DNA of 64,000 nt from an uncultured Gammaproteobacteria bacterium (GTDB taxonomy: Bacteria; Pseudomonadota; Gammaproteobacteria; CAWCPV01). Under the pieces are notes generated by a model that made no database searches, was not told the origin of the DNA, and saw nothing but the letters and a program-made list of their open reading frames with translations. The stretch is taken from the NCBI GenBank assembly GCA_963797555.1, contig CAWCPV010000007.1, forward strand, positions 416,001 through 480,000, in the 5' to 3' direction. This document shows positions 1 to 20,189 of the stretch, piece after piece. How positions within the stretch are numbered: position 1 is the stretch's first letter; every line of letters starts with the position of its first letter. Position numbers and translations under genes: made by a program.

Positions 1-799
1 TAGACGCCGCTTGGAGTACCTCCTGGGTGTCGAGCCCCATGCGGTGGAAGATGATCGCGAGCTCGTTCATGAGCGCTATGTTGAGATCGCGCTGCGTGTT
101 CTCGATGACCTTGGCGGCCTCCGCTACGCGGATGCTGGGCGCCCGATAGACTCCCCGGCCGACCACCTGCTCGTAAAGCCAGGCCACTGCCTCCAATGTC
201 TCTTGGTCCTGGCCGGCCACCACTTTGACGATGGTCTGCAGGGTGTGCTCGCGGTCCCCCGGATTGATGCGCTCCGGGGAATAGCCCACCCGGAAACCGT
301 CGCCGCACTTCAAGCCGGAGGCCCTCTCCAGAACAGGCACACACACGTCTTCGGTGGCGCCGGGGTAGACCGTGGACTCGTAAACCACGATTCCCCCCCG
401 CTTCAGGTGCCTGCCGACGACCTCGCTCGCAGAACACACCTGTCGCAGGTCGGGCTGCTTGGCGAGGTCGATGGGCGTGGGGACGGCGACGATGACGAAG
501 TCCGCCTCGCGCAGCGAGGCCGGGTTATCGGTCCATATGGCGCGTGTGGCGGCCGCAAAATCCCCTGGCTCCATCTGGCCCGTCGGGTCGCGGCCTTCCC
601 GGTAGGCGCCCACCTTGGCCCCGTCCACGTCGTAGGCGATGGTGCGGAGCCGCCGACCGAAGGCCAACGCCAACGGCAGGCCGACGTATCCCAAGCCGAT
701 GACGGCGACGCTGGGCAGTCTGAGGGGTCGGTAACCGCCCGGGGGTGTTTGCGGCGAGTCGGGCCCGCTGGCGGGATTCGCAGTGTGCTGTTCGGCCAT
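1..799 (-). CDS. Nucleotide-sugar (UDP-GlcNAc/GalNAc-type) 6-dehydrogenase, runs off the window edge
   Basis: Minus-strand frame from ATG at 799 reads [14 protein letters not shown] (Rossmann), [18 protein letters not shown] and [22 protein letters not shown]. It is absent from the ORF track because there is no stop inside the window. Confidence 0.9.
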
Positions 800-877
800 C
801 GGTCTGGCGTATACGGCTCGACGGTTCGGCTAGGGAACAAGCGAGCAGCCGACATCATAGCAGACGACCCGCAGCTC

Positions 878-1296
878 TGAAGACAAGCACCGGTTGGGCA
901 AGTCGCCTGCGTCCCAATCGTCCGTGTGTTAATTGCGGGCCTTCCATTCGACCCCATATTTCTGGGCGATACGCTTGTCTCCCGGACCCGTACACCCTCG
1001 ATCCCGCGCAACGGCTCGACAGAGCGGCGCTCCGGCGGCTTCTCCCCGAAACGCAGCTCGTACATCTTGCACACAACCCGAGACGCAGGGCAGGGTCCGA
1101 TGCCAACCTGGCCTGATGGAGAAGCCGGTCTGAGCGGGCGCCGCCGGGTTGCCCCGACGAGTCGAGCCGCACGCCGCGCTTGTCCACGACGACAAAAGCG
1201 CCATGCAGGACGTCGATTTGCCCCTTCTCCACGAACAGGACCGAGAGGTGCTCCTCGATGGGAATAGGTTTGAGCGGGGGGAAGCAGTGTCGTCAC
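878..1296 (-). pseudogene. cas1: Type I-E cas1 5' relic (internal deletion, frameshifts, in-frame stop, truncated)
   Basis: Fragments VEKGQIDVLHGAFVVVDKRGVR, SGQPGGARSDRLLHQARLA, KMYELRFGEKPPERRSVEPLRGIEGVRVR, AQKYGVEWKARN*HTDDWDAGDLPNRCLSS are collinear with E. coli-type I-E Cas1. Confidence 0.85.
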
Positions 1297-1721
1297 GGCG
1301 ACGGCCAGTCAGACAAGGCCATGAGATGCGGGCCGTTGCCTACCTTGCGTATATAGCCGGCGTCCGCCGTTATCATCAGACCGCCACGGGTCAAGGCCAG
1401 GGCGTGATAGCTGGCGGCGTAGAAGCTCACTGCGTGTGTCTCGGCGATGTTGAGTGTGGCTGTCTGCCACTGGGGCGAGGGTGTTGCAACCCACGGGTCC
1501 AGCAGCACCTGAAGCTGGCCTAGAGCTGTATCGGCATGCTCAGGCACTCGCCGAACGAGGATATTGCCGACCTCGAAATACCACAGAGCGGGAACCGTGA
1601 TCTGAAGACTACCATCCAGAGCCCCGTCCACGATGGCCGCCGCCTGCGCCTGATGTCCCTCATCCTCGTCACGCAGAACCCATTTGAGGATCACCGAAGC
1701 GTCGGGGACGACGACATTCAT
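1293..1721 (-). CDS. VapC-like PIN-domain toxin
   Basis: VVPDASVILKW ... FEVGN ... SFYAASYHALA ... MITAD. Coupled to the upstream antitoxin; its stop overlaps the cas1 relic start (ATGA). Confidence 0.85.
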   Translation of the reverse strand: MNVVVPDASVILKWVLRDEDEGHQAQAAAIVDGALDGSLQITVPALWYFEVGNILVRRVPEHADTALGQLQVLLDPWVATPSPQWQTATLNIAETHAVSFYAASYHALALTRGGLMITADAGYIRKVGNGPHLMALSDWPSP

Positions 1722-1945
1722 TGGTGACTGTCCCGATCCTCACGTACCCAGTCCTCGGTGCTGCCGGGGACCGGTTGGAGCGACTTACGCACGGCCTCGA
1801 TGGCTGCCCATGCCTCCCGCTGCCGGCGTTTGCGCAATGCGTCGGAAACGACCTCGTTCACCAGTTTGCTGCGTTCTCCGGGGGGCACCGTCTGGAGTTC
1901 CTCCCAGACCCGGTCATCCAGCATGATATTGACGCGATGGGCCAT
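1718..1945 (-). CDS. Ribbon-helix-helix-type antitoxin (VapB-like)
   Basis: MAHRVNIMLDDRVWEEL...RSKLVNEVV...EDWVREDRDSH; about 75 aa, 4-nt overlap with the PIN gene. Confidence 0.75.
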   Translation of the reverse strand: MAHRVNIMLDDRVWEELQTVPPGERSKLVNEVVSDALRKRRQREAWAAIEAVRKSLQPVPGSTEDWVREDRDSHQ

Positions 1946-2052
1946 GATATGCTCCGTGCTCAACAATCTACACATCCATTATACACACTCACAGCCTGCA
2001 CACCAGCAGCAGCGCGCAGCCCAAGGCTTTGGCGGGGCCGATGCCATTGAAC

Positions 2053-2375
2053 ATTTCAATCCGCGCCCGGCCGATTGGCCGGGCGATTCCTTCGGTGCGG
2101 CCCAGCAAATAGTAGTCTTTGCGGTTTCAATCCGCGCCCGGCCGATTGGCCGGGCGATTCCCGCGGGTGCGGTCGAGCACGTCGAGGTCACCATGTTTCA
2201 ATCCGCGCCCGGCCGATTGGCCGGGCGATTCCTCCGCAAGGGCAGCGTCGATTTCCTGTGACAATGTTTCAATCCGCGCCCGGCCGATTGGCCGGGCGAT
2301 TCGCGAACGTCCGCAGTCGGCTGACAGCATGCTCAGATGTTTCAATCCGCGCCCGGCCGATTGGCCGGGCGATTC
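2053..2375 (-). CRISPR. Type I-C CRISPR array, 5 repeats of 37 bp and 4 spacers (34, 34, 34, 36 bp)
   Basis: Repeat (minus) GAATCGCCCGGCCAATCGGCCGGGCGCGGATTGAAAC at 2053-2089, 2124-2160, 2195-2231, 2266-2302, 2339-2375. It has an internal hairpin and the ATTGAAAC 3' end. The leader-distal copy ends ATTGAAAT. Confidence 0.97.
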
Positions 2376-2553
2376 GCTGCGCTGGCAACGTCCGGTCCCG
2401 ACTGCGGAAAAATGCAGGAGTGCGCGAACCGCGCGGTCGGGGCTGGGGCCGGAAGGGTTGCCAGGGCGAAGGTAATGCTCAGGTTGTTAAAGATCATCGA
2501 GTTAGCAGAAGCGCGAACCTGCCGTCGGAACGCCGTCGCTCCAGGTTCGCGCA
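2376..2553 (-). promoter_or_regulatory. CRISPR leader
   Basis: Non-coding stretch between cas2 and the first repeat, with GCGCGAACC / GGTTCGCGC motifs at 2422, 2511 and 2544 as often seen in I-C leaders. Confidence 0.75.
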
Positions 2554-2844
2554 TCATACGAGGAGGGGGCCTTCGAAATCAACGGAGCGGAATACGCCGT
2601 ACTGCTTGACGCGGACCTCGGCGGGCTCGGTGATGCGGTAGAAGCGGAGGTTGTCTTCGGTTTCTTCAATCTCGGCCAGCAGCGCCCGCTCCAGTTGCTC
2701 GAACTGCATGTCGTTGACCTGGCACTCGAATACCGATTTCTGCACGCGCTGGCCCATGCTCTCGCATACCTTGGCGACACGGCGCAGCCGCCGTCGGCCC
2801 GCGGGAGTTTCGGTGGAGACATCATAGGCGACTATGATCAGCAT
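2554..2844 (-). CDS. cas2: CRISPR-associated Cas2
   Basis: [41 protein letters not shown]. Confidence 0.97.
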
Positions 2845-2856
2845 GGCGGGCCCGGG

Positions 2857-3891
2857 TCACTTGGCGAGGAATGGCAGGTAGCCGTCCATCTCGCCGCGCA
2901 GCGTGCGGGCCATGAAACGGGCCTGGACAAAGGGCAGCAGGGCGAGCGGCAACCGGGATTCCAGCAGGGGATGGGTGATTTCCTCCTGCTTGCGTTCCTG
3001 CCAGGCGGTGACGACCGTCCGGCGGCCCTTCTCGTTGAGCAGGACGGCGCCGCCCTCGCGTGCATCGAAGTCGTCCGCCGTGACCTGGCCTCGGTTGATC
3101 AGGGTGAGGGCCAGCCGGTCGGCGAGGATGGAACGAAACTCCTCTTGGAGGTCCAACCCAAGGGCTGCACGACCGGGGCGCACGGCGTGGAGGAAGCCCA
3201 GTTGGGGGTCGAGGCCCACGGATTCGACGCCGGAGCGGCAGTCGTTCATGAGCATGGCGTAGAGGAAGGAGATGAGAGCATTGAACCGATCCCGGGGCGG
3301 CCTGCGGGTGCGGCCGTTCAGGGCGAAGTCGGTTCTCGCCTGAGGTTTGACGATTAGGTTCAAGGCGGCGAAATAGCCCCGTGCCGCCTCGCCTTCCACC
3401 CCGCGCAGCGCGTCCAGGTCGGACGCGACGGCGGCCGAGCGAAGCGATGCCGCCAGGTCGTCGGCGGAGCGAGTCAGGGCTTGCGCCTCGCCGGTGTCCG
3501 CGGCCTCCCGCGCACCGCGCAGTACGACCGACCGGCTGTTCTTCAGCTTGGCGGCCACGATGCAGCGGGCGAATTCCAGCGTGAAGGCTGGGTCGCCCGC
3601 TGCGCGGTGCTGGGCCTGGCGCAGCAGAATGTTTCCGGAGACCGGACCCTCCAGCCGTGCCTTGAAACGGCCCGAGTCGTCCAGCAGGACGAGACTTTTC
3701 CCCTCGTCCGCCAATCGGTGCATGAGCGCCGGCGAGACCAGCACATTGCCAAAGCAGACGATGCCGCCAAGGTGGTGCAGGGGGACTTGGAGGCGTTTCT
3801 CCCGCTCCACGTCGATGCGCACCGTGTTGTTCTCCAGGTGCGCGTAGGCGTTGGGAGTCATCACGTAAAGGGTGTTCTGGATAGTGTGCAT
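2857..3891 (-). CDS. cas1: Type I-C Cas1 integrase
   Basis: NTLYVMTP, LRGVEGEAARGYF, RRPPRDRFNALISFLY, GLDPQLGFLH, DLQEEFR; intact 344 aa. Confidence 0.97.
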   Translation of the reverse strand: MHTIQNTLYVMTPNAYAHLENNTVRIDVEREKRLQVPLHHLGGIVCFGNVLVSPALMHRLADEGKSLVLLDDSGRFKARLEGPVSGNILLRQAQHRAAGDPAFTLEFARCIVAAKLKNSRSVVLRGAREAADTGEAQALTRSADDLAASLRSAAVASDLDALRGVEGEAARGYFAALNLIVKPQARTDFALNGRTRRPPRDRFNALISFLYAMLMNDCRSGVESVGLDPQLGFLHAVRPGRAALGLDLQEEFRSILADRLALTLINRGQVTADDFDAREGGAVLLNEKGRRTVVTAWQERKQEEITHPLLESRLPLALLPFVQARFMARTLRGEMDGYLPFLAK

Positions 3892-3931
3892 GAGGCTATA
3901 CTGCGTACCTAACTGTGTCTAGGAGCGTGTC

Positions 3932-4237
3932 ATGGATTTCGTTACGGTGCGTGAGCTGCGGGCCGAGTCGGCCAAGGTATGGGCCAAGATCGAGGCTGGC
4001 GAGGAGGTGGTCATCACCCGCCATGGCAAGCCATTCGCCTTGTTGGTGAACACCAATCCCGAAGATCTGGAAAATACGTTGCGTGCCATACGCGGCGAGC
4101 GTTTCGCGGCCAACGTGCGCAAGCTGCAGGCGGTTGCGGTGCAGCAGGGCCTGGACAAGATGACCATGGAGGACATCGACGCCGAGATCGCGGCAGCACG
4201 CAGGGAACGGCGCGGGCGGGATGCGGGCGGTCGTTGA
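3932..4237 (+). CDS. Phd/YefM-family antitoxin
   Basis: MDFVTVRELRAESAKVW...EEVVITRHGKPFALLV...MTMEDIDAEIAAAR. Confidence 0.85.
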   Translation: MDFVTVRELRAESAKVWAKIEAGEEVVITRHGKPFALLVNTNPEDLENTLRAIRGERFAANVRKLQAVAVQQGLDKMTMEDIDAEIAAARRERRGRDAGGR

Positions 4238-4622
4238 TACGAACGTCCTGGTTTCGGCGCTCGTCAACCCGGGCGGCACGCCGGGACGGCTGGTCGATGA
4301 AATCCGCACCCTCGCGCTGACGCCGGTGGTGAACGCGGCCATCCTGGCCGAATACTCGGAGGTACTGCGACGCCCGCGTTTCAACTTCCCGGATGGCCAG
4401 GTGCATGCGCTGCTGGATGATCTGGCCGCGCTGGCCTTCCATATTCGCCCCGAGGCCGTGGTTCCCGCCGATCTGCCGGACCCCGACGACGCCCCCTTCA
4501 TCGCCACTGCCTTGGCGGCGGGCTGCCCCATCGTCACCGGCAACGTGCGCCACTTTCCCGCCGATTGTGGCCTGAGAATCCTGAGCCCGGCGCAGTGCCT
4601 GGAACGCCTGCTCATGGGCTGA
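4221..4622 (+). CDS. PIN-domain toxin (VapC-like)
   Basis: MRAVVDTNVLVSAL ... LAEYSEVLRRPRF ... DPDDAPFIATALA ... IVTGNVRHF. Overlaps the antitoxin gene and is inverted relative to the cas genes. Confidence 0.9.
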   Translation: MRAVVDTNVLVSALVNPGGTPGRLVDEIRTLALTPVVNAAILAEYSEVLRRPRFNFPDGQVHALLDDLAALAFHIRPEAVVPADLPDPDDAPFIATALAAGCPIVTGNVRHFPADCGLRILSPAQCLERLLMG

Positions 4623-4710
4623 CGCCTTCGTCATCGTCGGCATACAACGCCTCGGCCAGGCGCTTCAGATGCGCCGTTCCGGCCAGCGCCTCGACTGGCA
4701 AGATGATCTC
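4612..4710 (-). pseudogene. Probable 3'-end relic of a third cas4
   Basis: Minus strand ATCTTGCCAGTCGAGGCGCTGGCC resembles cas4 ATCTGCCAGCCCGAGGCGCTGGCG (ICQPEALA) and continues EALAGTAHLKRLAEALYADDDEG. Confidence 0.5.
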
Positions 4711-4802
4711 GAACAGTTGCACAGGTTGACCGCGCGAACATCGTGTCGGTCTGAGCCGAGAGGGATCCTGCATTCCGAGGTGATTGCCAAACGTCCCATC
4801 CC

Positions 4803-5428
4803 CTATTCCTCCACGCTGAACAGCCCCGCTCGCACCGCTGCCTGTCTGGCTTTGTCCGCCAGCGCCTCGGGCTGGCAGATGTCCTTGAGAGAACACTCCC
4901 GGCAGCGGGCATCGTTCACCGGCGGGGGCAGCCGGCCGGAGGCCAACACCGCGCGAATGGCCGCCACGGCTTCCTCCACTTTGACGCGCAATGCAGGGGT
5001 GACCTCCACCTCCCGTCTGCGGCGGCTGGAGGCGTGATAGATCGCGCCTCGCGGCACCGGTTTTCCGGTCATCTCTTCGATGCACATGGCCTGGGCGGCG
5101 AGTTGCAGGTCGTCATGGGTCCTCTGCCGCTTGCGCCCGTGCTTGTATTCCACCGGATAGATGCGGCCGTCAGGGTGGAACTCCACGATGTCGGCCTTAC
5201 CCGTCAAGCCGAGCCGGTCGGACCAGAGGGGGAGGGCCCGCTCGATTCTCACTCCAGCCCCATCACTTCATATCGGGGTTCGTCCACCAGCCGATGCACT
5301 GCTTGTCCTCGCATGGTGTGCACGTTGTCCTCGAAGTCTTGCTCGACGTGGATCAAGGCGCACTGCCGCGGGCAGTAAGCCCAGTGCTGGATGGCGGAGA
5401 GGGAGATGGGGTCGGCAGTCTCATTCAC
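4803..5428 (-). CDS. cas4: Cas4 (copy B), one frameshift near 5250
   Basis: GTG start; ISLSAIQHWAYCPRQCALIH, GKADIVEF...YPVEYKHG, DDLQLAAQAMCIEEM, CRECSLKDIC. The break lies in a G run. Confidence 0.9.
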
Positions 5429-5792
5429 CTTTGTGTCCCGCCTGCAGTGGCCGCAGCCGGGTGCCTTCACGGCCGACAACCGCGAAGTAGCCCTCCGGCG
5501 TTTCGGGCAGGGCGCGCAAGGCCGCCTCCAGAACATCTTCCGCGATGATCGGATGCATGCGGAAATAGAGGATGGCCACCGGCGCCGGTGCGCCGTGGAA
5601 AAACACCAGATCGCCGAAGTCGGCGTCGAAGGTGAGCAGTCGACGGCTCGTTTGGCGGGCGAGTTCGAGGACAGCGCGGTCGTTGATGCCCGGTGAGGTT
5701 CGAGCGACGGACAGGACATCGTAGCCCGCTGCCGAAAGCGCGTCTATTACCGATCCGGGGAAATTCTCGTCAGCCAGGACCGCAAGCGTCAC
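5421..5792 (-). CDS. DUF5615 PIN-like toxin
   Basis: LADENFP...GYDV...GINDRAVLELA...LLTFDADFGDLVF; its stop overlaps the cas4B start. Confidence 0.85.
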   Translation of the reverse strand: MTLAVLADENFPGSVIDALSAAGYDVLSVARTSPGINDRAVLELARQTSRRLLTFDADFGDLVFFHGAPAPVAILYFRMHPIIAEDVLEAALRALPETPEGYFAVVGREGTRLRPLQAGHKGE

Positions 5793-6043
5793 CGGGCGAC
5801 GTCTCCGGACTCGGCGACCGCCTTCATGATGAAAGTCTCATCCTTCAGGCAATCGCGAACGAACGCGAAAACTGCCTGTAGATCCTCTTGAGTCAGGTGC
5901 GGATAGCTTTCCAATATCTGCGCTTCGTTCCACCCCGAGGCCATCAGGTCAAGAATGAACTCTACCCCGATACGGGTGCCCCGTATGCGAGGCTTGCCGA
6001 ACAAGGTTTCGGGGTCGGTCACGATGCGGCCATGCCAGTCCAT
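5789..6043 (-). CDS. DUF433 antitoxin
   Basis: RIVTDPETLFGKPRIRGTRIGVEFILDLMASGW...ILESYPHLTQEDL. Confidence 0.9.
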   Translation of the reverse strand: MDWHGRIVTDPETLFGKPRIRGTRIGVEFILDLMASGWNEAQILESYPHLTQEDLQAVFAFVRDCLKDETFIMKAVAESGDVAR

Positions 6044-6192
6044 ATGAACACCTCCTTCTCAGTGTCGTGGGCGGCGCAGCTACGAGGTCACCGCTTGCTC
6101 CCGCCAGTTCGTCGTCGAAAACCACAGTGTAGCTCCGAGAGCGGAAGACAGTCTTATGGCCGACGGTGCCCAGACTGGGTTTCGGGGCAGCC

Positions 6193-6399
6193 TCATGCCA
6201 TCCGTACCTCCTCCCGGCCGATGTGCAGGCAGATCAGGTCAGGGGTCTCGCCTGCCTCAAAATGGCAGCGCACCGCGTCCCGCACCTGGGCATACAAAGC
6301 CTCCAGGTCGTCCGCCTCGGTGAAGATGTCCGCACCGACGGCGCGAGCAACAAAGCCACCGTCGGGGGCCTCTTCGGCGATGAAGTGGATTTCGACCAT
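6193..6399 (-). CDS. Short HicB-like antitoxin; its partner is reduced to an MRLPRN stub
   Basis: EIHFIAEEAPDGGFVARAVGADIFTEADDLEALYAQVRDAVRCHF. The stop overlaps an ATG at 6196 reading MRLPRN, a HicA-like start that then degenerates. Confidence 0.65.
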   Translation of the reverse strand: MVEIHFIAEEAPDGGFVARAVGADIFTEADDLEALYAQVRDAVRCHFEAGETPDLICLHIGREEVRMA

Positions 6400-6443
6400 T
6401 GAATTCTTCCAAATAGGTGAGATTACCCGTGAAAGGGTACGGC

Positions 6444-6656
6444 TTAGCGCTCATGTAGCTCGTCTCGGCTGCACTTCAGCAGCGCCGCATCTGCCCGGAA
6501 CTGGTCGAAAAAGGCCTGGAGTTGTCGGCGCCGGGTCTCCCGGTCTTCCGAAAGCTGAGTGGGGATCAGCACCACCTCGACGGGCTGATTCAGCAACGCC
6601 TCGGGCACCTCCACGGTAACCTCGCGGCTGGTTGGGGTGACAGTCTGCGACCACAT
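6444..6656 (-). CDS. Small putative antitoxin; its partner is reduced to an MSAKP stub
   Basis: 70 aa with VEVPEALLNQPVEVVLIP, ending SRDELHER*. It overlaps an ATG at 6454 (MSAKP), the usual VapB/VapC junction, but no DTN PIN motif follows. Confidence 0.6.
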   Translation of the reverse strand: MWSQTVTPTSREVTVEVPEALLNQPVEVVLIPTQLSEDRETRRRQLQAFFDQFRADAALLKCSRDELHER

Positions 6657-6674
6657 GACGGGCTCTTTACGCGC

Positions 6675-6860
6675 ACAGGATGTTAGTTCGACACCGGCAT
6701 ACTGGTCCAGTTTTCCAGCGGGCGGGGCGACACCTTGGAATCCGCGAAATCGCGCGCCGGGCGGGTCTTGTCCTGCCACTCGAGGCGGATAAGCTCGAAG
6801 AGTTGTACAGGTTGCGGAGAGGTGTCCCGCTTTCCGAGGTCATTGCCATACGTCCCGCCG
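6675..6860 (-). pseudogene. Possible 3'-end relic of a different cas7c allele
   Basis: Reads LFELIRLEWQDKTRPARDFADSKV then, after a frameshift, APPAGKLDQYAGVELT. This resembles Cas7c C-termini; the resident Cas7 ends [26 protein letters not shown]. Confidence 0.5.
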
Positions 6861-6862
6861 CG

Positions 6863-7501
6863 CTATTCCCCCACGTTGAACAGCCCCGCTCGCACCGCCT
6901 CTTGCCTGGCTCTGTCTGCCAGCACCTCGGGCTGGCAGATTTCCTTCAGGGAACATTCCCGGCACCGGGCATCGTTTACCGGCGGGGGTAGCCGGCCGGA
7001 CGCCAGCATCTGCCGGATGGCTCCCACCATATACTCGACCTGCCTGCGTAGTTCCGGCGTGACGGCCACTTCCCGCCGTCGGCGGCTGGTGGCGTGAAAA
7101 ATCGCCCCGTGCGGGACGGGGCGGCCCGACATCTCTTCCAAGCACAACGCTTGGGCGGCAAGCTGGAGGTCGTCGTTGAGCCATTTCCGCCGCGGGCCGT
7201 GCTTGTACTCGACGGGATACACCGTGCCGTCGGGCCAGAACTCCACCACGTCGCACTTGCCCACGAGACCGATCCGGTCCGACCAGATGTTCAGTGCATA
7301 CTCGACGCGCGCCCCTTCACGGGAGGTTTCATGGGCGACCCGGTCCACCCGATCGTGCTCGGCGTTGCCGCGCAGTGTGTGGATATTCTCCTCGAATTCG
7401 CCCTCCAGGTAGATCAGACCGCAGCGCCTGGGACAATAGGCGTACTGGTTGAGTGCGGAGACGTTGATGAGGTCCGTTTCCTGTTGCACGGCCAAACGCA
7501 C
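6863..7501 (-). CDS. cas4: Cas4 (copy A), intact
   Basis: SALNQYAYCPRRC, GKCDVVEF...YPVEYKHG, DDLQLAAQALCLEEM, CRECSLKEIC. The true start may be the GTG near 7489. Confidence 0.95.
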   Translation of the reverse strand: MRLAVQQETDLINVSALNQYAYCPRRCGLIYLEGEFEENIHTLRGNAEHDRVDRVAHETSREGARVEYALNIWSDRIGLVGKCDVVEFWPDGTVYPVEYKHGPRRKWLNDDLQLAAQALCLEEMSGRPVPHGAIFHATSRRRREVAVTPELRRQVEYMVGAIRQMLASGRLPPPVNDARCRECSLKEICQPEVLADRARQEAVRAGLFNVGE

Positions 7502-8477
7502 TCAGCCAAGACGGACCAGCTCCACGCCCGGCGGCAGGCGATCCTTGTGCACGTTGACGACATAATCCGAGAAGGCACGAGACGAGCTACCGAGGCCCTC
7601 GCGGTGGTCGATCTCGATGATGGCACCGGGCACGGTCCGCTTGGGCGTCGAGTAATCCAGCAGGCGATGGGCTGGGGCGCAGCCGAGCATGGCCTCACGC
7701 ACGCGCTGGTTCGGATCGCTGTCGGTGCCGACGTGCTTGAAGGCGTAAAGCCCTCGGCAGGACATCATGCCCTTGGACGCGGAGCGGTCGTGGTCCCACA
7801 TATTGGCGAGTGCTTCCCAGAAGTGCTTGAGATCTGTCGTCGGAAAAACCCGTGCCCTTGGCGAGGTGGGCGGAGATGAAGCCTTTGCACGCGTAAAGGC
7901 CATAGGGGATAAGCGCCTTGCGGCCCATGGTACGGAGCTTGTCTTCCTCCTGCTCGTTTTCCCATTTTTCGTAGTCGGCAACCGTTTTCGCGTCTTTCAC
8001 TTTCTCCGCCACCGCCATCCGCGTGATAGATGCGTCTATAGGTAGGATGGGATCGACGGAACGGGAGAACGCTACCTGGACCGGGCCGCGCACTTGGCCG
8101 GCGTTGGGTCCGGTGGACATGACGGCGCCAAAAGTGCGTACGTCGAAGAAGTGCTGGCACATCCAGTCGCGCGCGTTCCCGACCTGCGTGCGGTTGGCTC
8201 CGCCACCGGGCGCCCCTGCTGTGGCCACATGGGCAGCGGTGATGGGTTTATTTAGGTTTGTTGCATGCTCCACGAAGACAGCGTTGGGCGCCGTATTATG
8301 AAAGGCCGTCTGGATGTAGTTCCGCACCCGCCGCTTGATAGCGACATCGGACACTAGGCCATGCATGTCCTCTGGGTCGATGCGTGGGCTGTTACCCGCG
8401 TCGGGATCGCCGTTCGGGTTGCCGTTCTCGCAGTCAAAGAGATAGAGGAACTCGTATCGGTTCTGAATGGCAGTCAT
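7502..8477 (-). CDS. cas7: Type I-C Cas7 (Csd2), frameshift near 7840
   Basis: [58 protein letters not shown], then in the next frame [17 protein letters not shown]. Confidence 0.95.
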
Positions 8478-8878
8478 TTGGTTTCTCCCTGTTCGGAATC
8501 TGTTTCTGGCGTCTGGTCGGACTTGCTGCCGGCGCGCAGGGTAGCGAGCTGCTGGTAGTAACCCAGGGCGAACAAGCCCTGGCCTTCGAGGTCGAGGATC
8601 CGCGGCGCGCCGTCGCCCAGGCGGCTCATGACCTCCGCGATGCGTCCCTCGTACCACCAGGCCAGTCCCGCTTCGAGTTTGCCGAGGTGGTTGCGGGCGT
8701 TGGCTATAAGTCGGCCGAGGATGAGGCCGGGCGTCTGGCTGGCAGCGGCATAGTAGCGCTGCACCACGCCTGCCCCCACGTCGCCCAGCGCCGCGCGCTG
8801 GAGGTTGGCAAGCACGGCCAGCAGGCGCCCGCAGTGGTAGGCGGAGGCCGGGTGGTCGGGGTTGAGATAAGCGGTCAT
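8474..8878 (-). CDS. cas11: Cas11c small subunit from an internal start in cas8c
   Basis: GGAGGT ribosome-binding site about 9 nt before ATG 8878, giving [23 protein letters not shown]. This matches the known internal translation start of I-C cas8. Confidence 0.7.
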
Positions 8879-10256
8879 AGTCTTTGTCACCTCCGGGGTT
8901 AAGTCGGACGAAGTACGTCTTGATGAGGCCCATGCGGGCGTGGTTGAACGGCTGATCTTCGATAAGATCGGCGCGGCAGCGCGCCAGTGCCTGAGCCATG
9001 AGCGGTTGCGGAATTGGCAGGCGCTGCACGGCCACTTTCCACAGCGTGGCAGTGGTGGGAGCGGGCAAGTACTTTAGTTCGCGTACCAGCGCCCCACACA
9101 CAGCCATGAACTTCGGGTCGCGCGCCTGTCCTTTTCCGTCGCGGGCAATGACGGCGAGGTCTGCAAACCAAGCTTCGACGTTCGCTGCCAAATCCTCGAA
9201 GCGTCCCTCCATCCAGTCGCGTACCATCACCCGGCCAGCGGCCCCGGACAGGGTCAGGGCGTAGTACCGGTTATCGCCCAGGTCGGCGCGTTGGCCGCTG
9301 CGGATGGACTCCAACAGGCGCCGGACTGCTCCAAGCGCGGCGGCCTCGGTCTGCTCCGGAGTGTCGAAGCCGTACAGGAATCTCAACGGGTCATCCTCGG
9401 CCGGCACCTGCTCCTTGAACCAATGGGTCACCAGCGCATTGGCGAGTTTGCGCGAGTGGTTGCGGATCAGGTCGTTGAGGCCGTCGATATATTTCTGCGC
9501 AGCCTCGCTGCTCATGGCGGCGTTGGCCGATTGTTCCAAACCGAAGGAGTTGAACGCGGCCTTGTCGAAGCCGACCATCACGTCGCCCATCGCCAGCCCG
9601 CCCACCCCGGCAAGTCCGTTGATCTTCGGCTGGGTCGCCAAGGGGTGGACGGCCTCGCCGGTGAGAAAGCAGACCATCGCGTCGTTATCGGTCTTGGGAT
9701 CGGCGACGAGTTGGGGCTTGGGTTCGACAGCCTGTTCTTCCGCCAAGGTCAGCACGCCGCCATTCCCGCCACCATGCCTGGACCATCTCATCCAGACGAG
9801 GATCATGCGTCGACCCGCCAGCCGACCCAGTCGGAGGGTTGGCCTTCTGGGTGGCCAAGGCAGCGCGGAGTTCGGCCAGCCGGTCGGGGTCTTCCACAAG
9901 CGAGCCAAGGGCGCCAGCAGCGGGACCGTGGCGGCGGCCTCGCCCAGCAGGTGCACGAAGAAACGATGTCGCTCTTGGGCGGTTGCGACTTTCTTCGGCT
10001 CTCACCCGATTTGAACAGGAGCGCTGCCGTCTGCGCGGTCTCCACCAGGAAATGGCCTTGCCGCCGGCATTCATGCCGTGCATGTCCGGGCAGCGCGGCT
10101 GATCTTCCCCGCGTTTACCATCGCCCAACGGCAGCACGTTGAGAAAGCGCCCATCGGCGGTCAGTTCGACGCTCCAGCGCACCTCGCGGGTCTTGAACCC
10201 GGGCTCTGAGCCGGGCAGACGCCGTTCGGCATAGATCATGAGGGCTTGCAGCATGG

Positions 10257-10260
<4 letters not shown>
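8474..10260 (-). CDS. cas8c: Type I-C Cas8c (Csd1), several frameshifts
   Basis: [10 protein letters not shown]..., [62 protein letters not shown]; lies between cas5 and cas7. Confidence 0.9.
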
Positions 10261-14490
<4,230 letters not shown>

Positions 14491-16795: not shown

Positions 16796-19700
16796 CACGT
16801 AGTCGACCTTGCCGCTGCCGAGCAGCGGCAGCTCCTCGACCTTCAGGATGGTCTTGGGAATGCTGAACTCCGCGATGCCCTGCTGCCTGGCGAAGGCGAC
16901 CAGCGCCTCGCGCCTGGCGTCGGCCTGGTCGGTGACCAGCACCAGTTGCTCGCCTTTCTTGGGATCGGGAAGGCTCACCACCGCGTGGGCGTGCTCCGGC
17001 CAGAGGTGCGACACGTAACCCTCCACCGCGGTGAGGGACACCATCTCGCCGCCGATCTTAGCGAAGCGCTTGGCGCGGCCCTTGATGACGATGTAGTCGT
17101 GATCCTCGATGGCGACGATGTCGCCCGTGTCGTACCAGCCGTCCTGCGGAGGCTGCAGCACCCCCGGCTTGTCGACCTGCAGGTAGCCCGCCATGACGTT
17201 CGGGCCGCGAGACCAGCAGCCTGCCGCCCTCTTCGATGCCCGGGATCGGCTCCAGGCGGCTGGTTATGCCCGGGACCAGCCTTCCTACCGAACCGGTGCG
17301 GTTCTGCATGGGGGTGTTGAGCGCGAGCACGGGACCGGTCTCGGTCGCGCCGTACCCTTCCAGGATGCGGATGCCGAACTTCTCGCTCCACAGGCGGCGC
17401 GTCTCGCCCTTCAGCCGCTCCGCGCCCGCGAACACGTAGCGCATGCTGTAGAAGTCGTAGGGATGGGCGAAGCGTGCATAGCCCGACAGGAAGGTGTCCG
17501 TGCCGAACATGATGGTGGCGTTGGTCTCGTAGGCCAGCTCGGGCACGATCCGGTAGTGCAGGGGAGAGGGGTAGAGGAAGGCGCGCACTCCGGAGAGGAT
17601 GGGAAGGATGGTGCCGCAGGTCAGCCCGAAGGAGTGGAACATCGGCAGCGCGTTGAACACCGTGTCGGTGGGGCCGAAGTCGATGCGTGACACTACCTGG
17701 TAACGGTTGGCCTGGAGGTTGGCGTGGGTCAGCACCACGCCCTTCGGAGCGCCCTCGGTGCCGGAGGTGAACAGGATGGCGGCCGCGGTGTCCGGGTCTC
17801 GCTGCCGGCTCGTGATCAGGTAATAGAGCTGGGGAATCCAGCGTCCCACCAGCCCCAGGACTTTGTCCAACCTTCCGATGCGTTCCCGCACGTCCTCCAG
17901 GTAGGCGAGGCGGACGCCGGCCCCCTCGATCGCCTTCGCCATGTCTGCCAGCCTCGCCATCTCCAGGAAGCGGCGCGATGTGTAGACGGTCCGGATGGCC
18001 GCCGACTGGCAACCGAGCACGGCGTTGCGGGTGCCGGTCGAGAAGTTCAGCATGGCGGGCACCCTACCGAAGGCATGCAGCCCGAAGAACGCGACGGCGG
18101 TGCCCGTGGCATTGGGGAGCAGCAGTCCGACGTGCTCACCGGGCCGGGACCCCGCGGCGAGGCGCCTTCCGAGAACGAAGCTCGCGGTGATGAGGCGGCT
18201 ATAGCCCAAGGGCTTGCGCTCAACGTCCTCCAGCACCGGATGGCGCGCTCCATGGGTCTTGCGCGCGTCGAGGAGCGATTGGAAGAGGGTGTGGCGGTAA
18301 TCGCTGCTCTCGAACAGCATCTCCGCCATCAGGGCGTACAGACGGTCCGCCGCGTACTGGCGCCTCTTGCGGCCTTTGATCTCGGCCGGTACGTCGAAAG
18401 TCCTCGGCTCCAGGAACTGGACGCGGATCTTGGGAAACCACCGGATGCGGACCTTCCCGCGCAGGCGCGAGAAGGGCGTGTACTGGGCGCCGTCGAGGCG
18501 CACCGGCAGCAGCATCGCCCCAGCCTTGTCGGCGACCAGACCGGGCCCCTCGTAGACCTTCATGAGCGAGCCCGTGACCGTGATCCGGCCCTCCGGGAAG
18601 ATGACCAGCTTCTCACCGCGCCGCACCGCCTCGATCAGCGCGCGGGTGGCCATGGGGTTAGTGGGGTCGACCGGGTGCGTCTTCGCCAGCCAGAGGAAGT
18701 AACGGATGAAGCTCTGCTTGGCGATACGGGTGTCGACGGCGAAGGTCAGCGGGTCGGGCACGTAGGCCGCGATGAGCACGGCGTCCAGGAACGAGAGGTG
18801 ATTGGCGACGATGAGCACCCGGTCACCGGCCTTGAAGTAATTCTTGATGCCCTGCACGTCCACCCGGTACAGCGTCTCGAGGAGCCAGGCGATCATCGCC
18901 TTCACCAGAGCGCCGGGTAGCAGTTGGGAGATGTATACGGCCACCCCGGCATTGAGGAGGGCCGTGACCAGGAACACCTGCGGAACCGAGAACCCCAGCT
19001 CCAGCATCCCCACCGTGGCCAGGGCCGACAGGACCATGAACGCCGCGTTGATGACGTTATTGCTGGCGATGTTGCGGGCCCGGTGGCTCGGCTCGCTGCG
19101 CTCCTGCAGCAGGGCGTAGAGCGGTACGATGTAGACGCCGCCGGACACCGCGATGAGCAGCAAATCCAGCAAGATCCGCCAGCTCGCGGCATGGGACAGG
19201 AACGCCCACGCACCGAGGAGCTGGCCTGGGGTGCCCAGGGGATGCCCGGTGGCGAAGAACAGGTCGATGGAGAACAGCGTGATGCCGACGGCGCCGAGTG
19301 GGACGTAGGTGGCGTGGATGGCCCCCTTGAGGAGCCGGTTGCAGAGCAGCAATCCGAGCGCGATGCCCACCGAGAACACGGTGAGGAAGAGGGTGACCAC
19401 TTGCTGGTCGCCCCCGACAACGTCCTTCGTCAGGCTCGGAAACTGAGCGAGGAAGGTCCCGCCGACGAGCCAGAACCAGGAAATGCCCAGGATGCACAGG
19501 AAGATGACCCGGGACGCGGCGGCGTGGCGGACGATGCGCCAGGTCTCCGACACGATGTTGTAGCTGACCTTGAGGTCGGGCGAGCCGGACTGGGTGGGCA
19601 GGATGTATCGGCTGGCCGCCCATCCGCCCACCGCGACCGCGAGCACCAGCAAGGAGACGATGGCGGCGCCGTGGTGCGCCAGGATGACCAGACCCCCGAC

Positions 19701-20189
19701 GATGGTGCCCAGCAGGATGGCGAGGAACGTTCCCGCCTCGATGAATGCGTTGCCCCCAATCAGCTCCTCCTCGCCGAGCTGGTCGGGAAGGATGCCGTAC
19801 TTGAGCGGACCGAAGAAGGTGGCCTGCGTGCCCAGCAGAAACAACACGGTCACCAAGAACGGCACGCTGCTGAAGTAGAAGCCGATGGCGGCGGCGAGCA
19901 TGATGAGGATCTCGGCCAGCTTGATCCATCGGATCAGCATGGCCTTGTCGTAGCGGTCGGCGAGCTGCCCCGCGGTCGCGGAGAACAGGAAGAAAGGGAG
20001 GATGAAGATGCCCGCCGCCAGCGTCACCATGACCTGCCCGTTCAGGTTGGTCCGGGCGGCCAGGACGTAGGTGATCAGGATCACCAGGGCGTTCTTGTAC
20101 ACGTTGTCGTTGAACGCTCCCAGGAACTGGGTCACGAACAGCGGCAGGAAACGGCGGGTCCCTAGCAGGGCAAACTGGCTCTCGCGCAC
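16688..20189 (-). CDS. aas: MFS-acyltransferase-acyl-ACP synthetase fusion (Aas-like), frameshift near 17200
   Basis: LplT-like MFS (FLGAFNDNVYKNAL), PlsC motifs NHLSFLD and FPEG, AMP-binding FTSGTEGAPKG, EGYGATE, WYDTGD, KRFAKIGGEMVSL. Confidence 0.93.

What the first reader, a model, noticed from the sequence alone, without database searches (positions are those of the whole stretch)
3892..7501. TA-cassette accretion site inside the I-C cas operon, built in layers bounded by duplicated cas fragments
Seen in sequence: in canonical I-C loci cas7, cas4 and cas1 are adjacent, but here the minus strand reads cas4A, cas7-like tail, antitoxin plus toxin stub, HicB-like plus stub, DUF433-DUF5615, cas4B, a copy of the post-cas4 sequence, a third cas4-like tail, then an inverted Phd-PIN pair and cas1. 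The DNA after cas4A and cas4B is homologous (GGGACGTWTGGCAATSACCTCGGAA...AACCTGTRCAACTSTTCGAG). The DUF5615 stop overlaps the cas4B start. No transposase or integrase lies in the interval. Inference: the cas7/cas4/cas1 junction acts as a recombination anchor that repeatedly captures different TA modules from related cas loci. That would make it a swappable addiction or abortive-infection slot co-expressed with the adaptation genes. RNA-based CreTA safeguarding of cas loci is known; I do not know of this stacked protein-TA arrangement with cas scars being described.
Basis: partly seen in the sequence, partly recalled or inferred. Interest (0 to 1): 0.75.

Follow-up and report, generated by a model that had tools for sequence, protein, structure and literature searches.

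The report
Toxin-antitoxin cassettes stacked inside CRISPR operon
A type I-C CRISPR-Cas gene cluster has several small toxin-antitoxin gene pairs wedged between its cas7, cas4 and cas1 genes, separated by leftover pieces of cas genes; most related clusters carry varied toxin-antitoxin pairs at the same two points, which suggests that these cassettes spread by recombination between CRISPR loci.

Summary
On the minus strand the window reads cas7, intact cas4A, a cas7-tail remnant, orphan antitoxin, orphan HicB-like antitoxin, DUF433-DUF5615, frame-broken cas4B, a second copy of the post-cas4 block, a third cas4 tail, inverted PIN-Phd, cas1, cas2, array. The two cas4 copies are 54-72% identical until their last 137 nt. 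Identity there is 86-90% and stays at 79-85% for about 75 nt past the stop.

Relatives support the recombination idea. In 80 loci with the closest Cas1, 60 of 77 carry toxin-antitoxin (TA) genes between cas7 and cas4, and 22 of 80 between cas4 and cas1. A second I-C clade gives 52 of 68 and 25 of 76 occupied. cas8c|cas7 is never occupied (0 of 104). At least ten TA-type families occur, and several relatives carry cas-fragment scars. The scars here best match cas genes of loci holding the same neighbouring cargo.

What is new is limited. TA pairs interspersed in archaeal cas cassettes are in print, but I found no description of this fixed two-seam I-C pattern.

This locus looks decayed: cas3, cas8c, cas7 and cas4B carry frame breaks and two toxins are lost. 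Reads could not confirm the layout. An addiction or abortive-infection role is untested.

The parts
2053..2375 (-). CRISPR array: 5 repeats of 37 nt and 4 spacers, period 71-73
   Evidence: the repeat finder D2; sequence printed
2554..2844 (-). cas2
   Evidence: PF09827, E 2.6e-24
2857..3891 (-). cas1c, intact
   Evidence: TIGR03640, 486 bits against cut-off 385; PF01867
3932..4237 (+). Phd/YefM-type antitoxin, inverted relative to cas. Its start lies 40 nt from the cas1 start.
   Evidence: PF02604, 36.8 bits against cut-off 29.8; 74-78% identical to L026, L056 and L058
4221..4622 (+). PIN_3 toxin, inverted; overlaps the Phd gene by 17 nt
   Evidence: PF13470, E 9e-18
4612..4710 (-). Remnant of a third cas4: the last 32 codons plus the stop
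   Evidence: Local alignment to 68 Cas4 tails. Best are L062, L056 and L026 (57, 56, 54); 0 of 300 shuffles reach the top score.
4702..4802 (-). Copy B of the shared post-cas4 block, including a 27-nt insertion and the first codons of a cas7 tail (QLFEII)
   Evidence: Alignment A1
4803..5428 (-). cas4B, B-type, split over two frames with a frame change near 5266-5268
   Evidence: PF01930 on both pieces; the genome search finds two pieces; sequence
5421..5792 (-). DUF5615 (PIN-like presumed toxin), intact; its stop overlaps the cas4B GTG by 8 nt
   Evidence: PF18480, E 3e-19
5789..6043 (-). DUF433 (presumed antitoxin), intact
   Evidence: PF04255, E 1.5e-23
6080..6196 (-). HicA remnant: a 38-codon ORF of which only the first 6 codons match HicA of relatives
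   Evidence: tblastn of 14 HicA sequences; best E 0.05-0.14
6193..6399 (-). HicB-like antitoxin of 68 aa, orphan here
   Evidence: No Pfam or NCBIfam hit. Followed by a PF07927 HicA in relatives. AF2 model pLDDT 86.8. Best Foldseek hits are HicB-type chains at weak E-values of 0.08-0.9.
6400..6454 (-). Remnant of a PIN toxin; only the first 6 codons (MSAKPY) match
   Evidence: Compared with the 134-aa PIN that follows the same antitoxin in L100, L101 and L103
6444..6656 (-). 70-aa antitoxin of an unnamed family ('anti70'), orphan here
   Evidence: 12 homologues among 5.8 billion proteins, none named. 8 of 9 loci lie inside I-C operons. The predicted complex with its PIN partner passes.
6680..6805 (-). 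Remnant of the 3' end of a B-type cas7 (about 40 codons, one frame change)
   Evidence: tblastx; alignment scores 57 and 64 with 0 of 300 shuffles reaching them; best matches L044, L041, L031
6788..6862 (-). Copy A of the shared post-cas4 block
   Evidence: Alignment A1. No blastn match of 100 nt or more (E <= 1e-5) in the 80 relatives.
6863..7501 (-). cas4A, intact (212 aa). The 5' ~500 nt are A-type. The last 137 nt are 86-90% identical to cas4B.
   Evidence: TIGR00372, 133 bits; identity profile; sliding-window neighbours
7502..8699 (-). cas7 (A-type) with one frame change near 7840-7846
   Evidence: tblastn with the L020 and L023 proteins; the genome search finds two pieces
8486..10368 (-). 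cas8c with two frame changes
   Evidence: tblastn with the L020 protein
10263..11033 (-). cas5, single frame
   Evidence: tblastn with the L020 protein
11327..13303 (-). cas3 with at least four frame changes
   Evidence: tblastn with the L023 and L020 proteins

Best explanation
This is a real mosaic inside a type I-C cas operon. The two seams that flank cas4 (cas7|cas4 and cas4|cas1) are tolerated docking points for small type II toxin-antitoxin cassettes.

The window holds three head-to-tail units, each made of a cas7 tail, cargo and cas4:
- Unit 1: full cas7, no cargo, cas4A.
- Unit 2: cas7-tail remnant, then anti70 (a 70-aa antitoxin of an unnamed family), HicB-like, DUF433-DUF5615, cas4B.
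- Unit 3: a stub of the same junction fused to the last 32 codons of a third cas4.
After these come an inverted PIN-Phd cassette and cas1.

Inferred history:
1. A junction 'cas4 stop, then cas7 tail' arose by illegitimate or unequal recombination between two I-C loci (or sister copies) with different cargo, and was then amplified.
2. An A-type interference module (cas3 to the 5' two-thirds of cas4A) replaced the resident one by homologous exchange, with a crossover near 7000.
3. Deletions removed two toxins and most of the third unit.

Across the lineage, cassettes spread between I-C loci mainly by recombination in the flanking cas genes, so each cargo travels with its flank.

Most likely function: the cassettes are selfish addiction modules that persist because losing them is costly. 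At most they make deletion of the adaptation region costly. They are not needed for CRISPR function.

Shown: the anatomy, the duplication, the scars, and the variable cargo in relatives. Inferred: the order of events, the recombination route, and the function.
For: Anatomy. Sharp identity step at 7000/4940 and loss of similarity at 6788/4702.

Scars and their likely donors:
- cas7-tail and cas4-tail remnants are significant against shuffles.
- Their best matches are loci holding the same neighbouring cargo: L062, L056 and L026 for PIN/Phd; L044, L041 and L031 for DUF433/5615.
- L056 has the window's inner layout: cas7, HicBA, DUF433/5615, cas4, inverted PIN/Phd, cas1.

Cargo in relatives:
- Sample 1 (80 loci, Cas1 76-85% identical): cas7|cas4 holds TA genes in 60 of 77 and cas4|cas1 in 22 of 80; both are empty in 9 of 77.
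- Sample 2 (79 loci): 52 of 68 and 25 of 76 occupied.
- Control junctions: cas8c|cas7 0 of 104; cas5|cas8c 0 real of 91; cas3|cas5 9 of 76; cas1|cas2 always under 100 nt.
- Scars in relatives: a 61-codon cas1 N-fragment between two cassettes in L058; a cas4 fragment followed by a cas7 tail in L067 and L081/L083; cas1 and cas4 fragments in L250.

Signs of exchange:
- Effector type (A or B) is uncoupled from cas1 and from the ParE cassette. cas1 is 77.5-77.7% identical within and between types, whereas only 68 nt of the cas7 tail align between types.
- On the Cas1 tree there are at least 17 cargo changes at cas7|cas4 (59 tips) and at least 11 at cas4|cas1 (78 tips).
- Cas4 tails are more alike between loci with the same downstream cargo (41-50%) than between loci with different cargo (29%), at equal body identity of 64-67%.

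Other support:
- anti70 occurs inside I-C operons in 8 of 9 loci. Its PIN partner gives a predicted-complex score of 0.81 against a best control of 0.08. That mark was reached by 58 of 80 solved complexes and 2 of 110 mismatched pairs. Runs agree in at least 97% of contacts and the partner's pLDDT is at least 84.
- The longest exact run shared by the two cas4 copies is 22 nt, which is short for an assembler to join through.
Against: - No read or contig spans the interval. Only short contigs of relatives from four marsh-metagenome runs could be laid, so the layout rests on one assembly.
- The genome has other split genes: 3 of 4 other cas1 loci and a second dnaE-like gene. Frame breaks may therefore be assembly indels and not decay.
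- The first ~50 nt of the shared block match nothing, so the 'tandem unit' reading of the junction is incomplete.
- No relative is closer than about 89% in any 150-nt window, and the genome has no kin below class level among the 40 searched. The order of events cannot be dated.
- Cargo is phylogenetically structured: observed changes are fewer than in every shuffle. Much of the pattern is therefore inheritance, not fresh capture.
- Pair counts are not independent.
- The HicB-like lineage also occurs away from cas genes in 27 of 80 loci.
- Function was not tested at all.
Confidence: 0.7

Rival explanations
1. Functional coupling. The cassettes are working accessories of this I-C lineage: abortive-infection back-ups, or regulators whose antitoxin-operator control sits next to cas4 or cas1. 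They would link spacer acquisition or failed interference to toxin activation, as described for Cas13a with HicAB.
For: - Positions are fixed and recur in two I-C clades.
- One TA family (anti70-PIN) was found almost only in this slot, in 8 of 9 loci.
- Inverted cassettes place the antitoxin start within about 40 nt of the cas1 or cas4 start.
- A direct Cas13a-HicB interaction is published (PMC13448076, abstract and passages read).
Against: - At least ten unrelated TA-type families occupy the same slots. That fits a tolerated site better than a specific partnership.
- Toxins are often deleted while antitoxins stay: the window, L096-L099, L102, L018, L081.
- 9 of 77 and 10 of 68 loci have both seams empty.
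- There is no expression or interaction evidence. The promoter scan found nothing above chance.
Confidence: 0.2
2. Assembly artefact. The interval is a chimera of two co-occurring strains, one with an A-type and one with a B-type I-C locus, joined by the assembler. The frame breaks are consensus errors.
For: - The genome is a 20-contig, 84.6%-complete assembly.
- Frame breaks cluster in cas genes here and in other cas1 loci.
- Related marsh-metagenome contigs show other arrangements: joints 4328 to 5769, 4634 to 6579, and 5114 to 7197.
- No spanning read could be obtained.
Against: - The two cas4 copies share no exact run longer than 22 nt.
- The cas4-stop-to-cas7-tail junction occurs twice with 79-85% identity, which a single misjoin cannot produce.
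- Comparable cas4-fragment/cas7-tail junctions occur in independent assemblies: L067 and L081/L083.
- One 250-nt contig of run X2 (depth 2.8), about 99% identical, covers the cas4B end, the scar and the PIN end, with a 68-nt deletion.
- Long ORFs elsewhere in the window are intact: 1820 aa and 1043 aa. dnaE on contig C10 is in a single frame.
Confidence: 0.1

Closest known systems
vapBC pairs interspersed in cas gene cassettes of Sulfolobales (Garrett et al. 2015, PMC4390879, section 8; passages read)
   Same: Protein type II TA pairs lie inside cas cassettes, sometimes several per cassette (four in a type III-D cassette of Acidianus hospitalis). They were proposed to help maintain CRISPR-Cas in the population.
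   Different: That case is archaeal, mostly of one TA family, in large variable regions rich in transposable elements, and the passages I read mention no fixed position. Here the loci are bacterial type I-C, the cargo sits at two fixed seams around cas4, at least ten TA-type families occur, no transposase was found in the interval, and cas-gene fragments mark the joins.
CreTA, the CRISPR-regulated RNA toxin-antitoxin that guards cas genes (reviewed in PMC12737573 and PMC9458426; passages and abstract read)
   Same: A toxin-antitoxin module nested in a cas locus that could make loss of the locus costly.
   Different: CreTA uses an RNA toxin and a repeat-like RNA antitoxin that needs Cascade. 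Here both parts are proteins and do not depend on Cascade. No repeat-like element was found in 2400-13400: the best match was 22 of 37 positions, while shuffles gave a mean of 21.8 and a maximum of 24.
CCTA, the integrated Cas13a-HicAB system (Chen et al. 2026, PMC13448076; abstract and passages read)
   Same: A type II TA module (HicAB) is built into a CRISPR-Cas locus. [quoted passage not shown]
   Different: CCTA is type VI-A, has one specific TA, and has a demonstrated protein-protein interaction. Here the system is type I-C, many TA families are interchangeable, and no interaction was tested. The HicB-like protein here is 68 aa, far shorter than the 138-139-aa HicB chains it matches.
Modular shuffling of CRISPR-Cas effector and adaptation modules (Makarova et al. 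2025, PMC12669027; discussion passage read)
   Same: The A-type and B-type interference modules are combined with one and the same cas1 lineage. The break lies at the effector/adaptation seam.
   Different: The passages I read do not mention TA cassettes sitting at that seam or cas-fragment scars.
TA cassettes in chromosomal integron arrays
   Same: Stacked, swappable small cassettes that include TA pairs thought to stabilise the array.
   Different: No integrase and no attC-like element were found here. The joins are cas gene fragments, which points to homologous and illegitimate recombination.

Membership tests
Type I-C CRISPR-Cas | Cas1 of the I-C subfamily | tested here: met
   TIGR03640, 486 bits against cut-off 385
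Type I-C CRISPR-Cas | Gene order cas3-cas5-cas8c-cas7-cas4-cas1-cas2, followed by an array | tested here: met
   tblastn with the proteins of L020 and L023 gives that order at 13303-7514. cas4, cas1 and cas2 come, and the array. Extra genes lie around cas4.
Type I-C CRISPR-Cas | Intact interference genes (a working system) | tested here: not met
   cas3 has at least 4 frame changes, cas8c 2 and cas7 1. Whether these are real or assembly errors is open.
Type II toxin-antitoxin, Phd/YefM with a PIN toxin | Adjacent small antitoxin and toxin genes of the named families | tested here: met
   PF02604 and PF13470 both score above their cut-offs. The genes overlap by 17 nt.
Type II toxin-antitoxin, Phd/YefM with a PIN toxin | The toxin arrests growth and the antitoxin neutralises it | not testable with these tools
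   Needs expression assays
DUF433-DUF5615 pair (a predicted TA; that status is recalled, no paper read) | Both domains in adjacent, overlapping genes | tested here: met
   PF04255 and PF18480. The genes overlap by 4 nt (5789-5792). The pair recurs in L031, L041, L044, L056 and others.
HicAB | A HicA toxin (PF07927) next to the antitoxin | tested here: not met
   In the window only 6 codons of HicA remain. In relatives the 68-aa protein is followed by a PF07927 HicA.
HicAB | A HicB fold in the antitoxin | tested here: inconclusive
   No Pfam hit, no NCBIfam hit and no PDB sequence hit. Foldseek's best hits are 1wv8 (E 0.08, probability 0.97), 6u0i_B, 3k6q_A and 6hpb_B. None reaches E 0.001.
VapBC-like pair (anti70 with a PIN toxin) | A PIN toxin gene directly downstream of the antitoxin | tested here: not met
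   In the window the toxin is reduced to about 6 codons. In L100, L101, L103 and L095 a PIN follows (L100's 134-aa copy hits PF01850, E 6e-16).
VapBC-like pair (anti70 with a PIN toxin) | The antitoxin binds the toxin | tested here: met
   Prediction only: score 0.81 against a best control of 0.08. The mark was reached by 58 of 80 solved complexes and 2 of 110 mismatched pairs. Contacts agree in at least 97% and the partner's pLDDT is at least 84. VapBC complexes have been solved, so the pass may reflect likeness.
CreTA | A CRISPR-repeat-like creA element beside a small toxic RNA gene | tested here: not met
   The best repeat-like match in 2400-13400 is 22 of 37 positions. Shuffles give a mean of 21.8 and a maximum of 24.
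Integron-type cassette array | An integrase and attC recombination sites | tested here: not met
   No integrase or transposase family among the ORFs scanned. The inverted repeats found in 1-14000 are short and 70-84% complementary.

The most novel reading that the evidence does not exclude
A large proteobacterial lineage of type I-C systems may have evolved a dedicated cassette seam around cas4. On this reading, TA modules, some of them (anti70-PIN) living almost only there, are exchanged between loci together with their cas flanks. Their autoregulated promoters abut the cas4 or cas1 start and gate expression of the adaptation genes, so that antitoxin loss under phage stress would switch on spacer acquisition or kill the cell. 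That would be a protein-based, swappable counterpart of CreTA that acts on the adaptation module.
Probability: 0.15. Interest if true: 0.8.

Novelty: new variant of a known kind. Interest (0 to 1): 0.55.

Why it matters
If it holds, it gives a concrete and widespread case of how selfish TA cassettes colonise and travel with a defence system, in at least 118 of 145 loci assessable at both seams across two I-C clades. They do so by recombination in conserved flanking genes, without any dedicated recombinase. It marks the effector/adaptation seam of I-C operons as the place where modules are swapped and cargo accumulates.

It is also directly testable in cultured carriers: Thiobacillus thioparus DSM 505, Acidithiobacillus ferrianus MG, Thiocapsa roseopersicina DSM 217 and Nitrosomonas strains. 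The tests are whether the cassettes stabilise the locus, regulate cas4 and cas1, or act as abortive-infection back-ups.

It also defines a small antitoxin family that has no name and occurs almost only in this slot. For this particular window the lesson is more modest: the locus looks like a decaying mosaic.

Tried and rejected
- Reads. The look-up of sequencing runs found only small shares (at most 0.16) in marsh and soil metagenome runs. The four runs laid gave short contigs of relatives and none spans the interval. The layout is therefore neither confirmed nor refuted, and I draw no conclusion about habitat.
- CRISPR-repeat-like (CreA-type) elements in 2400-13400: nothing above shuffles.
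- Promoter and terminator scan of 2300-8000: counts at or below chance.
- blastn of the post-cas4 segments against 80 relatives: no hit at E 1e-3. Only weak hits appeared at E up to 10, and these became meaningful only at protein level.
- The first ~18 codons after each cas4 stop could not be assigned to cas7 or to anything else.
- Genomes of the same class (40): no similar interval, only weak partial matches in 4. None of my claims rests on the unpublished genome G039.
- Plasmid collection: all I-C Cas1 hits are below 53% identity. Not pursued.
- PDB sequence searches with the HicB-like protein and with the anti70 profile: no hit at E up to 1.
- A constant order of stacked cassettes: rejected. 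Sample 2 has DUF433/5615 upstream of HicBA (L238, L239, L251), while sample 1 has the reverse.
- Family-specific orientation holds in sample 1 only. Four loci of sample 2 carry a co-oriented ParE.
- The cas5|cas8c 'gaps' over 200 nt (4 of 91) are unaligned Cas8c N-termini, not inserts.
- rpoB and rpoC, meant as checks on the frameshift rate, were not found in this 84.6%-complete genome.
- Earlier notes of this scan by place, by sequence and by a second word search: nothing.

Full report
OBSERVATION

The interval lies in a type I-C cas operon on the minus strand. Pfam and NCBIfam and the sequence itself give the following order, 5' to 3':
- cas7 (8699-7502)
- cas4A (7501-6863, intact, 212 aa)
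- a non-coding scar (6862-6680)
- a 70-aa protein of no known family, here called anti70 (6656-6444)
- a 6-codon toxin start (from 6454)
- a 68-aa HicB-like protein (6399-6193)
- a 38-codon HicA remnant (6196-6080)
- DUF433 (6043-5789)
- DUF5615 (5792-5421)
- cas4B in two frames (5428-5249 and 5252-4803)
- a second scar (4802-4612)
- PIN_3 and Phd on the opposite strand (4622-3932)
- cas1c (3891-2857), cas2 (2844-2554) and a 5-repeat array (2375-2053)

The DUF5615 stop and the cas4B GTG overlap by 8 nt.

THE DUPLICATION

cas4A and cas4B align over their whole length (A1). Identity is 54-72% in 100-nt blocks over the first ~500 nt. It jumps to 90% and 86% in the last 137 nt (7000-6864 against 4940-4804). 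It stays at 79-85% for about 75 nt past the stop codon, apart from an in-frame 27-nt indel. Beyond 6788/4702 it drops to 41%.

The post-stop block has no blastn match of 100 nt or more (E up to 1e-5) in 80 related loci. Protein-level conservation therefore cannot explain it. The longest exact run shared by the two copies is 22 nt.

THE SCARS

After cas4A the scar continues with the 3' end of a different (B-type) cas7, read in two frames. The peptides QLFELIRLEWQDKTRPARDFADSKV and APPAGKLDQYAGVEL score 57 and 64 against 60 Cas7 tails, and 0 of 300 shuffles reach either score. The best matches are L044, L041 and L031, the loci whose cas7 is followed by DUF433/DUF5615.

After cas4B the scar keeps only the first codons of that tail. 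It is then fused to the last 32 codons of a third cas4. That tail scores 57, 56 and 54 against L062, L056 and L026, out of 68 Cas4 tails, and 0 of 300 shuffles reach 57. Those three are the three loci in that set whose cas4 is directly followed by inverted PIN/Phd.

The first ~18 codons after each cas4 stop match nothing (297 of 300 shuffles reach the score).

THE CARGO

Phd-PIN_3 and DUF433-DUF5615 are intact pairs. The other two cassettes are orphan antitoxins.

The HicB-like protein has no Pfam, NCBIfam or PDB sequence hit. In relatives it is followed by a PF07927 HicA. Its AF2 model (pLDDT 86.8) finds HicB-type chains first, but at weak E-values: 1wv8 at E 0.08, then 6u0i_B, 3k6q_A and 6hpb_B.

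anti70 has 12 homologues among 5.8 billion proteins, none of them named. Nine loci were recovered:
- Eight of the nine lie inside I-C operons, next to cas7, cas4 or cas1.
- In L100, L101, L095 and L103 the gene is followed by a PIN toxin; L100's 134-aa copy hits PF01850.
- In L096, L097, L098, L099 and L102, as in the window, the toxin is truncated or gone.

The predicted complex of the L100 pair supports binding. The score is 0.81 against a best control of 0.08. That mark was reached by 58 of 80 solved complexes and 2 of 110 mismatched pairs. The runs agree in at least 97% of contacts and the partner's pLDDT is at least 84. VapBC complexes have been solved, so the pass may reflect likeness.

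RELATIVES, SAMPLE 1

The sample is the 80 best of 259 genome-contig loci encoding a Cas1 relative, at 76-85% identity. Most are Thiobacillus, Hydrogenophilales and Chromatiaceae. I mapped them with a panel of the window's and the relatives' proteins.

I corrected four rows of the scripted tally by hand:
- L007: its cas4 match is partial, so the script misfiled its ParE cargo.
- L065: cas7 and cas4 abut.
- L046 and L068: their 'unassigned' 693-nt insert is an inverted canonical hicAB.

Corrected result for cas7|cas4 (77 assessable):

| Cargo | Loci |
|---|---|
| Inverted ParE + Unstab_antitox | 37 |
| HicB-like + HicA | 8 |
| HicBA + ParE | 6 |
| DUF433/DUF5615 | 4 |
| Other combinations | 3 |
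| Canonical hicAB | 2 |
| None | 17 |

That is 60 of 77 with TA genes.

Corrected result for cas4|cas1 (80 assessable):

| Cargo | Loci |
|---|---|
| Inverted PemK + RHH | 12 |
| HicBA | 4 |
| Inverted PIN + Phd | 3 |
| L023 (DUF433 fragments + HicB) | 1 |
| L028 (DUF433) | 1 |
| L058 (PemK/RHH + PIN/Phd) | 1 |
| None | 58 |

Both seams are empty in 9 of 77. L081 and L083 are near-identical contigs of one MAG and count as one.

RELATIVES, SAMPLE 2

The sample is 79 loci taken by similarity (54-81%) to the Cas1 of L097, from Nitrosomonas, Gallionella, Nitrotoga and others. The seed locus was chosen because it carries anti70, so the clade is not a blind pick.
- cas7|cas4: 52 of 68 occupied by at least 200 nt. 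Of these, 43 carry panel families and 9 were unassigned.
- cas4|cas1: 25 of 76 occupied, 23 with panel families.
- Both seams empty: 10 of 68.

The unassigned inserts that I scanned hold further TA-type genes:
- nucleotidyltransferase + HepT (L197)
- nucleotidyltransferase + HEPN (L222; the same genes by eye in L224, L237, L262, L270 and L251)
- DUF4258 (L202)
- a co-oriented ParE (L204)
- DUF6883 (L216)

CONTROL JUNCTIONS, BOTH SAMPLES

| Junction | Gaps over 200 nt |
|---|---|
| cas8c\|cas7 | 0 of 104 |
| cas5\|cas8c | 4 of 91, all unaligned Cas8c N-termini |
| cas3\|cas5 | 9 of 76 |
| cas1\|cas2 | none; always under 100 nt |

Three of the cas3|cas5 gaps are about 770 nt. The one I read, L085, holds a Phd-like and a PIN-like gene by eye.

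The HicB-like lineage is enriched in these slots but not confined to them. Of the 80 best loci, 53 have cas7, cas4 or cas1 within 3 kb and 27 have none. Carriers include cultured isolates: Thiobacillus thioparus DSM 505, Acidithiobacillus ferrianus MG, A. ferrivorans DSM 22755, Thiocapsa roseopersicina DSM 217, Thiocystis violacea and Nitrosomonas strains.

EVIDENCE FOR RECOMBINATION

Two effector types occur. A-type loci have a cas7 tail about 70% identical to the window's and B-type loci about 40%. Yet cas1 is equally similar within and between types, at 77.5-77.7% DNA identity. The ParE cassette behaves the same way (75-77%). By contrast, only 68 nt of the cas7 tail align between types.

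The window joins an A-type cas7 and cas4A 5' part to B-type remnants and cas4B. Nearest neighbours change along the interval:

| Segment | Nearest relatives |
|---|---|
| cas7 | L058, L006 |
| cas4A 5' part | L067, L058 |
| HicB-like | L057, L008 |
| DUF433/5615 | L044, L056 |
| cas4B | L037 and others |
| PIN/Phd | L056, L058, L026 |

L056 has the window's inner layout: cas7, HicBA, DUF433/5615, cas4, inverted PIN/Phd, cas1.

Scars like the window's occur elsewhere:
- L058 has a 61-codon cas1 N-fragment between PemK/RHH and PIN/Phd.
- L067 and L081/L083 have a cas4 fragment followed by a cas7 tail between two cassettes.
- L250 has cas1 and cas4 fragments.
- L199 and L247 have cas4 fragments.

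On a Cas1 tree, cargo needs at least 17 changes at cas7|cas4 (59 tips; shuffles give 23-31) and at least 11 at cas4|cas1 (78 tips; shuffles give 16-20). These counts use the earlier labels. The pattern is partly inherited and partly turned over.

The last 22 residues of Cas4 are more alike between loci that share the downstream cargo. Identity is 47% over 171 PemK pairs, 41% over 10 PIN/Phd pairs and 50% over 15 Hic pairs. It is 29% over 2729 pairs with different cargo. Body identity is nearly equal, 65-67% against 64%. These pairs are not independent.

STATE OF THIS LOCUS

Compared with the proteins of L020 and L023, cas3 changes frame at least 4 times, cas8c twice and cas7 once. cas5, cas4A, cas1 and cas2 are intact.

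Elsewhere in the window long ORFs are intact: 1820 aa, and a 1043-aa gene with three Pfam domains in one frame. dnaE on contig C10 is in a single frame.

However, three of four other cas1 loci in the genome and a second dnaE-like gene are split. I cannot tell pseudogenes from local assembly indels.

Reads did not help. Only small shares in marsh-metagenome runs were found, and the laid contigs are short pieces of relatives. One 250-nt contig of run X2 (depth 2.8) is about 99% identical. It covers the cas4B end, the scar and the PIN end, with a 68-nt deletion.

The genome has no relative closer than class among the 40 searched.

COMPARISON WITH PRINT

Seven searches and passages of ten papers were read.

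Garrett et al. [quoted passage not shown] They say these pairs were suggested to help maintain CRISPR-Cas.

Chen et al. 2026 (PMC13448076) describe an integrated Cas13a-HicAB system. [quoted passage not shown]

CreTA is RNA-based (PMC12737573, PMC9458426).

Makarova et al. [quoted passage not shown]

In what I searched and read, no paper describes TA cassettes at the cas7|cas4 and cas4|cas1 seams of type I-C, or cas-fragment scars. Supplementary tables were not available and may list such genes.

That fits the same seam, but I did not test it.

HOW IT MOST LIKELY WORKS

The seams around cas4 tolerate inserts. TA cassettes that land there are hard to lose, and they are carried from locus to locus when related I-C loci recombine in the conserved flanking genes.

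Unequal or illegitimate joins between two loci with different cargo stack the cassettes and leave cas fragments. Later deletions remove toxins and keep antitoxins.

The anatomy and the comparative pattern are shown. The route and the order of events are inferred. An addiction, regulatory or abortive-infection role is untested.

Noticed in passing
window 7514-13303: The interference genes of this I-C operon change frame repeatedly: cas3 at least 4 times, cas8c twice, cas7 once. cas5, cas4A, cas1 and cas2 are intact. This is either a decaying interference module or local assembly indels.
   Followed up: partly
G000 contigs C2:235845-236695, C4:237760-238474, C9:245239-245835, C20:49450-50304, C14:279113-281666: The genome has four further cas1 loci, three of them split over frames, and a second dnaE-like gene split in two. 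Several CRISPR-Cas systems may be decaying, or the assembly may carry indels.
   Followed up: no
window 13414-14421 (-): A WYL-domain protein (PF13280) lies directly upstream of cas3. It is a likely regulator of the operon.
   Followed up: no
window 1293-1975 (-): Just beyond the CRISPR array lie an 85-aa ORF with no family hit and a PIN-domain gene (PF01850). They are probably a further VapBC-type pair flanking the locus.
   Followed up: no
L077, L085, L225 (cas3|cas5 gap of about 770 nt; L085:2692-3443): A third, rarer insertion point lies between cas3 and cas5. In L085 it holds a Phd-like and a PIN-like gene, judged by eye and not scanned. Six other loci have about 230-335 nt there with no clear ORF.
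   Followed up: partly
L222, L224, L237, L262, L270, L251, L197: In Nitrosomonas- and Gallionella-type I-C loci the same seams carry nucleotidyltransferase + HEPN or HepT pairs (PF01909/PF18765 with PF05168 or PF01934).
   Followed up: partly
window 4693-4760, run X2 record 12: A marsh-metagenome contig about 99% identical to the cas4B end and the PIN end lacks 68 nt of the scar. That would be a further-trimmed variant in a close strain. It is one contig at depth 2.8.
   Followed up: no
window 6444-6779 (-); protein P0003: The second frame of the cas7-tail remnant runs without a stop into anti70, giving a 111-aa ORF. One database homologue (P0003, 96 aa) has a similar N-terminal extension that reads like a cas7 tail.
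   Followed up: no
window 17058-20189 (-): A 1043-aa gene fuses MFS transporter, acyltransferase and AMP-binding domains. It is ordinary, and I used it only as an intact-ORF control.
   Followed up: no
G000 against 40 genomes of the same class: Each of the 40 nearest genomes held belongs to a different family from the window's genome. The I-C locus (Cas1 up to 85% identical to Hydrogenophilus and Thiobacillus MAGs) was therefore probably acquired horizontally.
   Followed up: no
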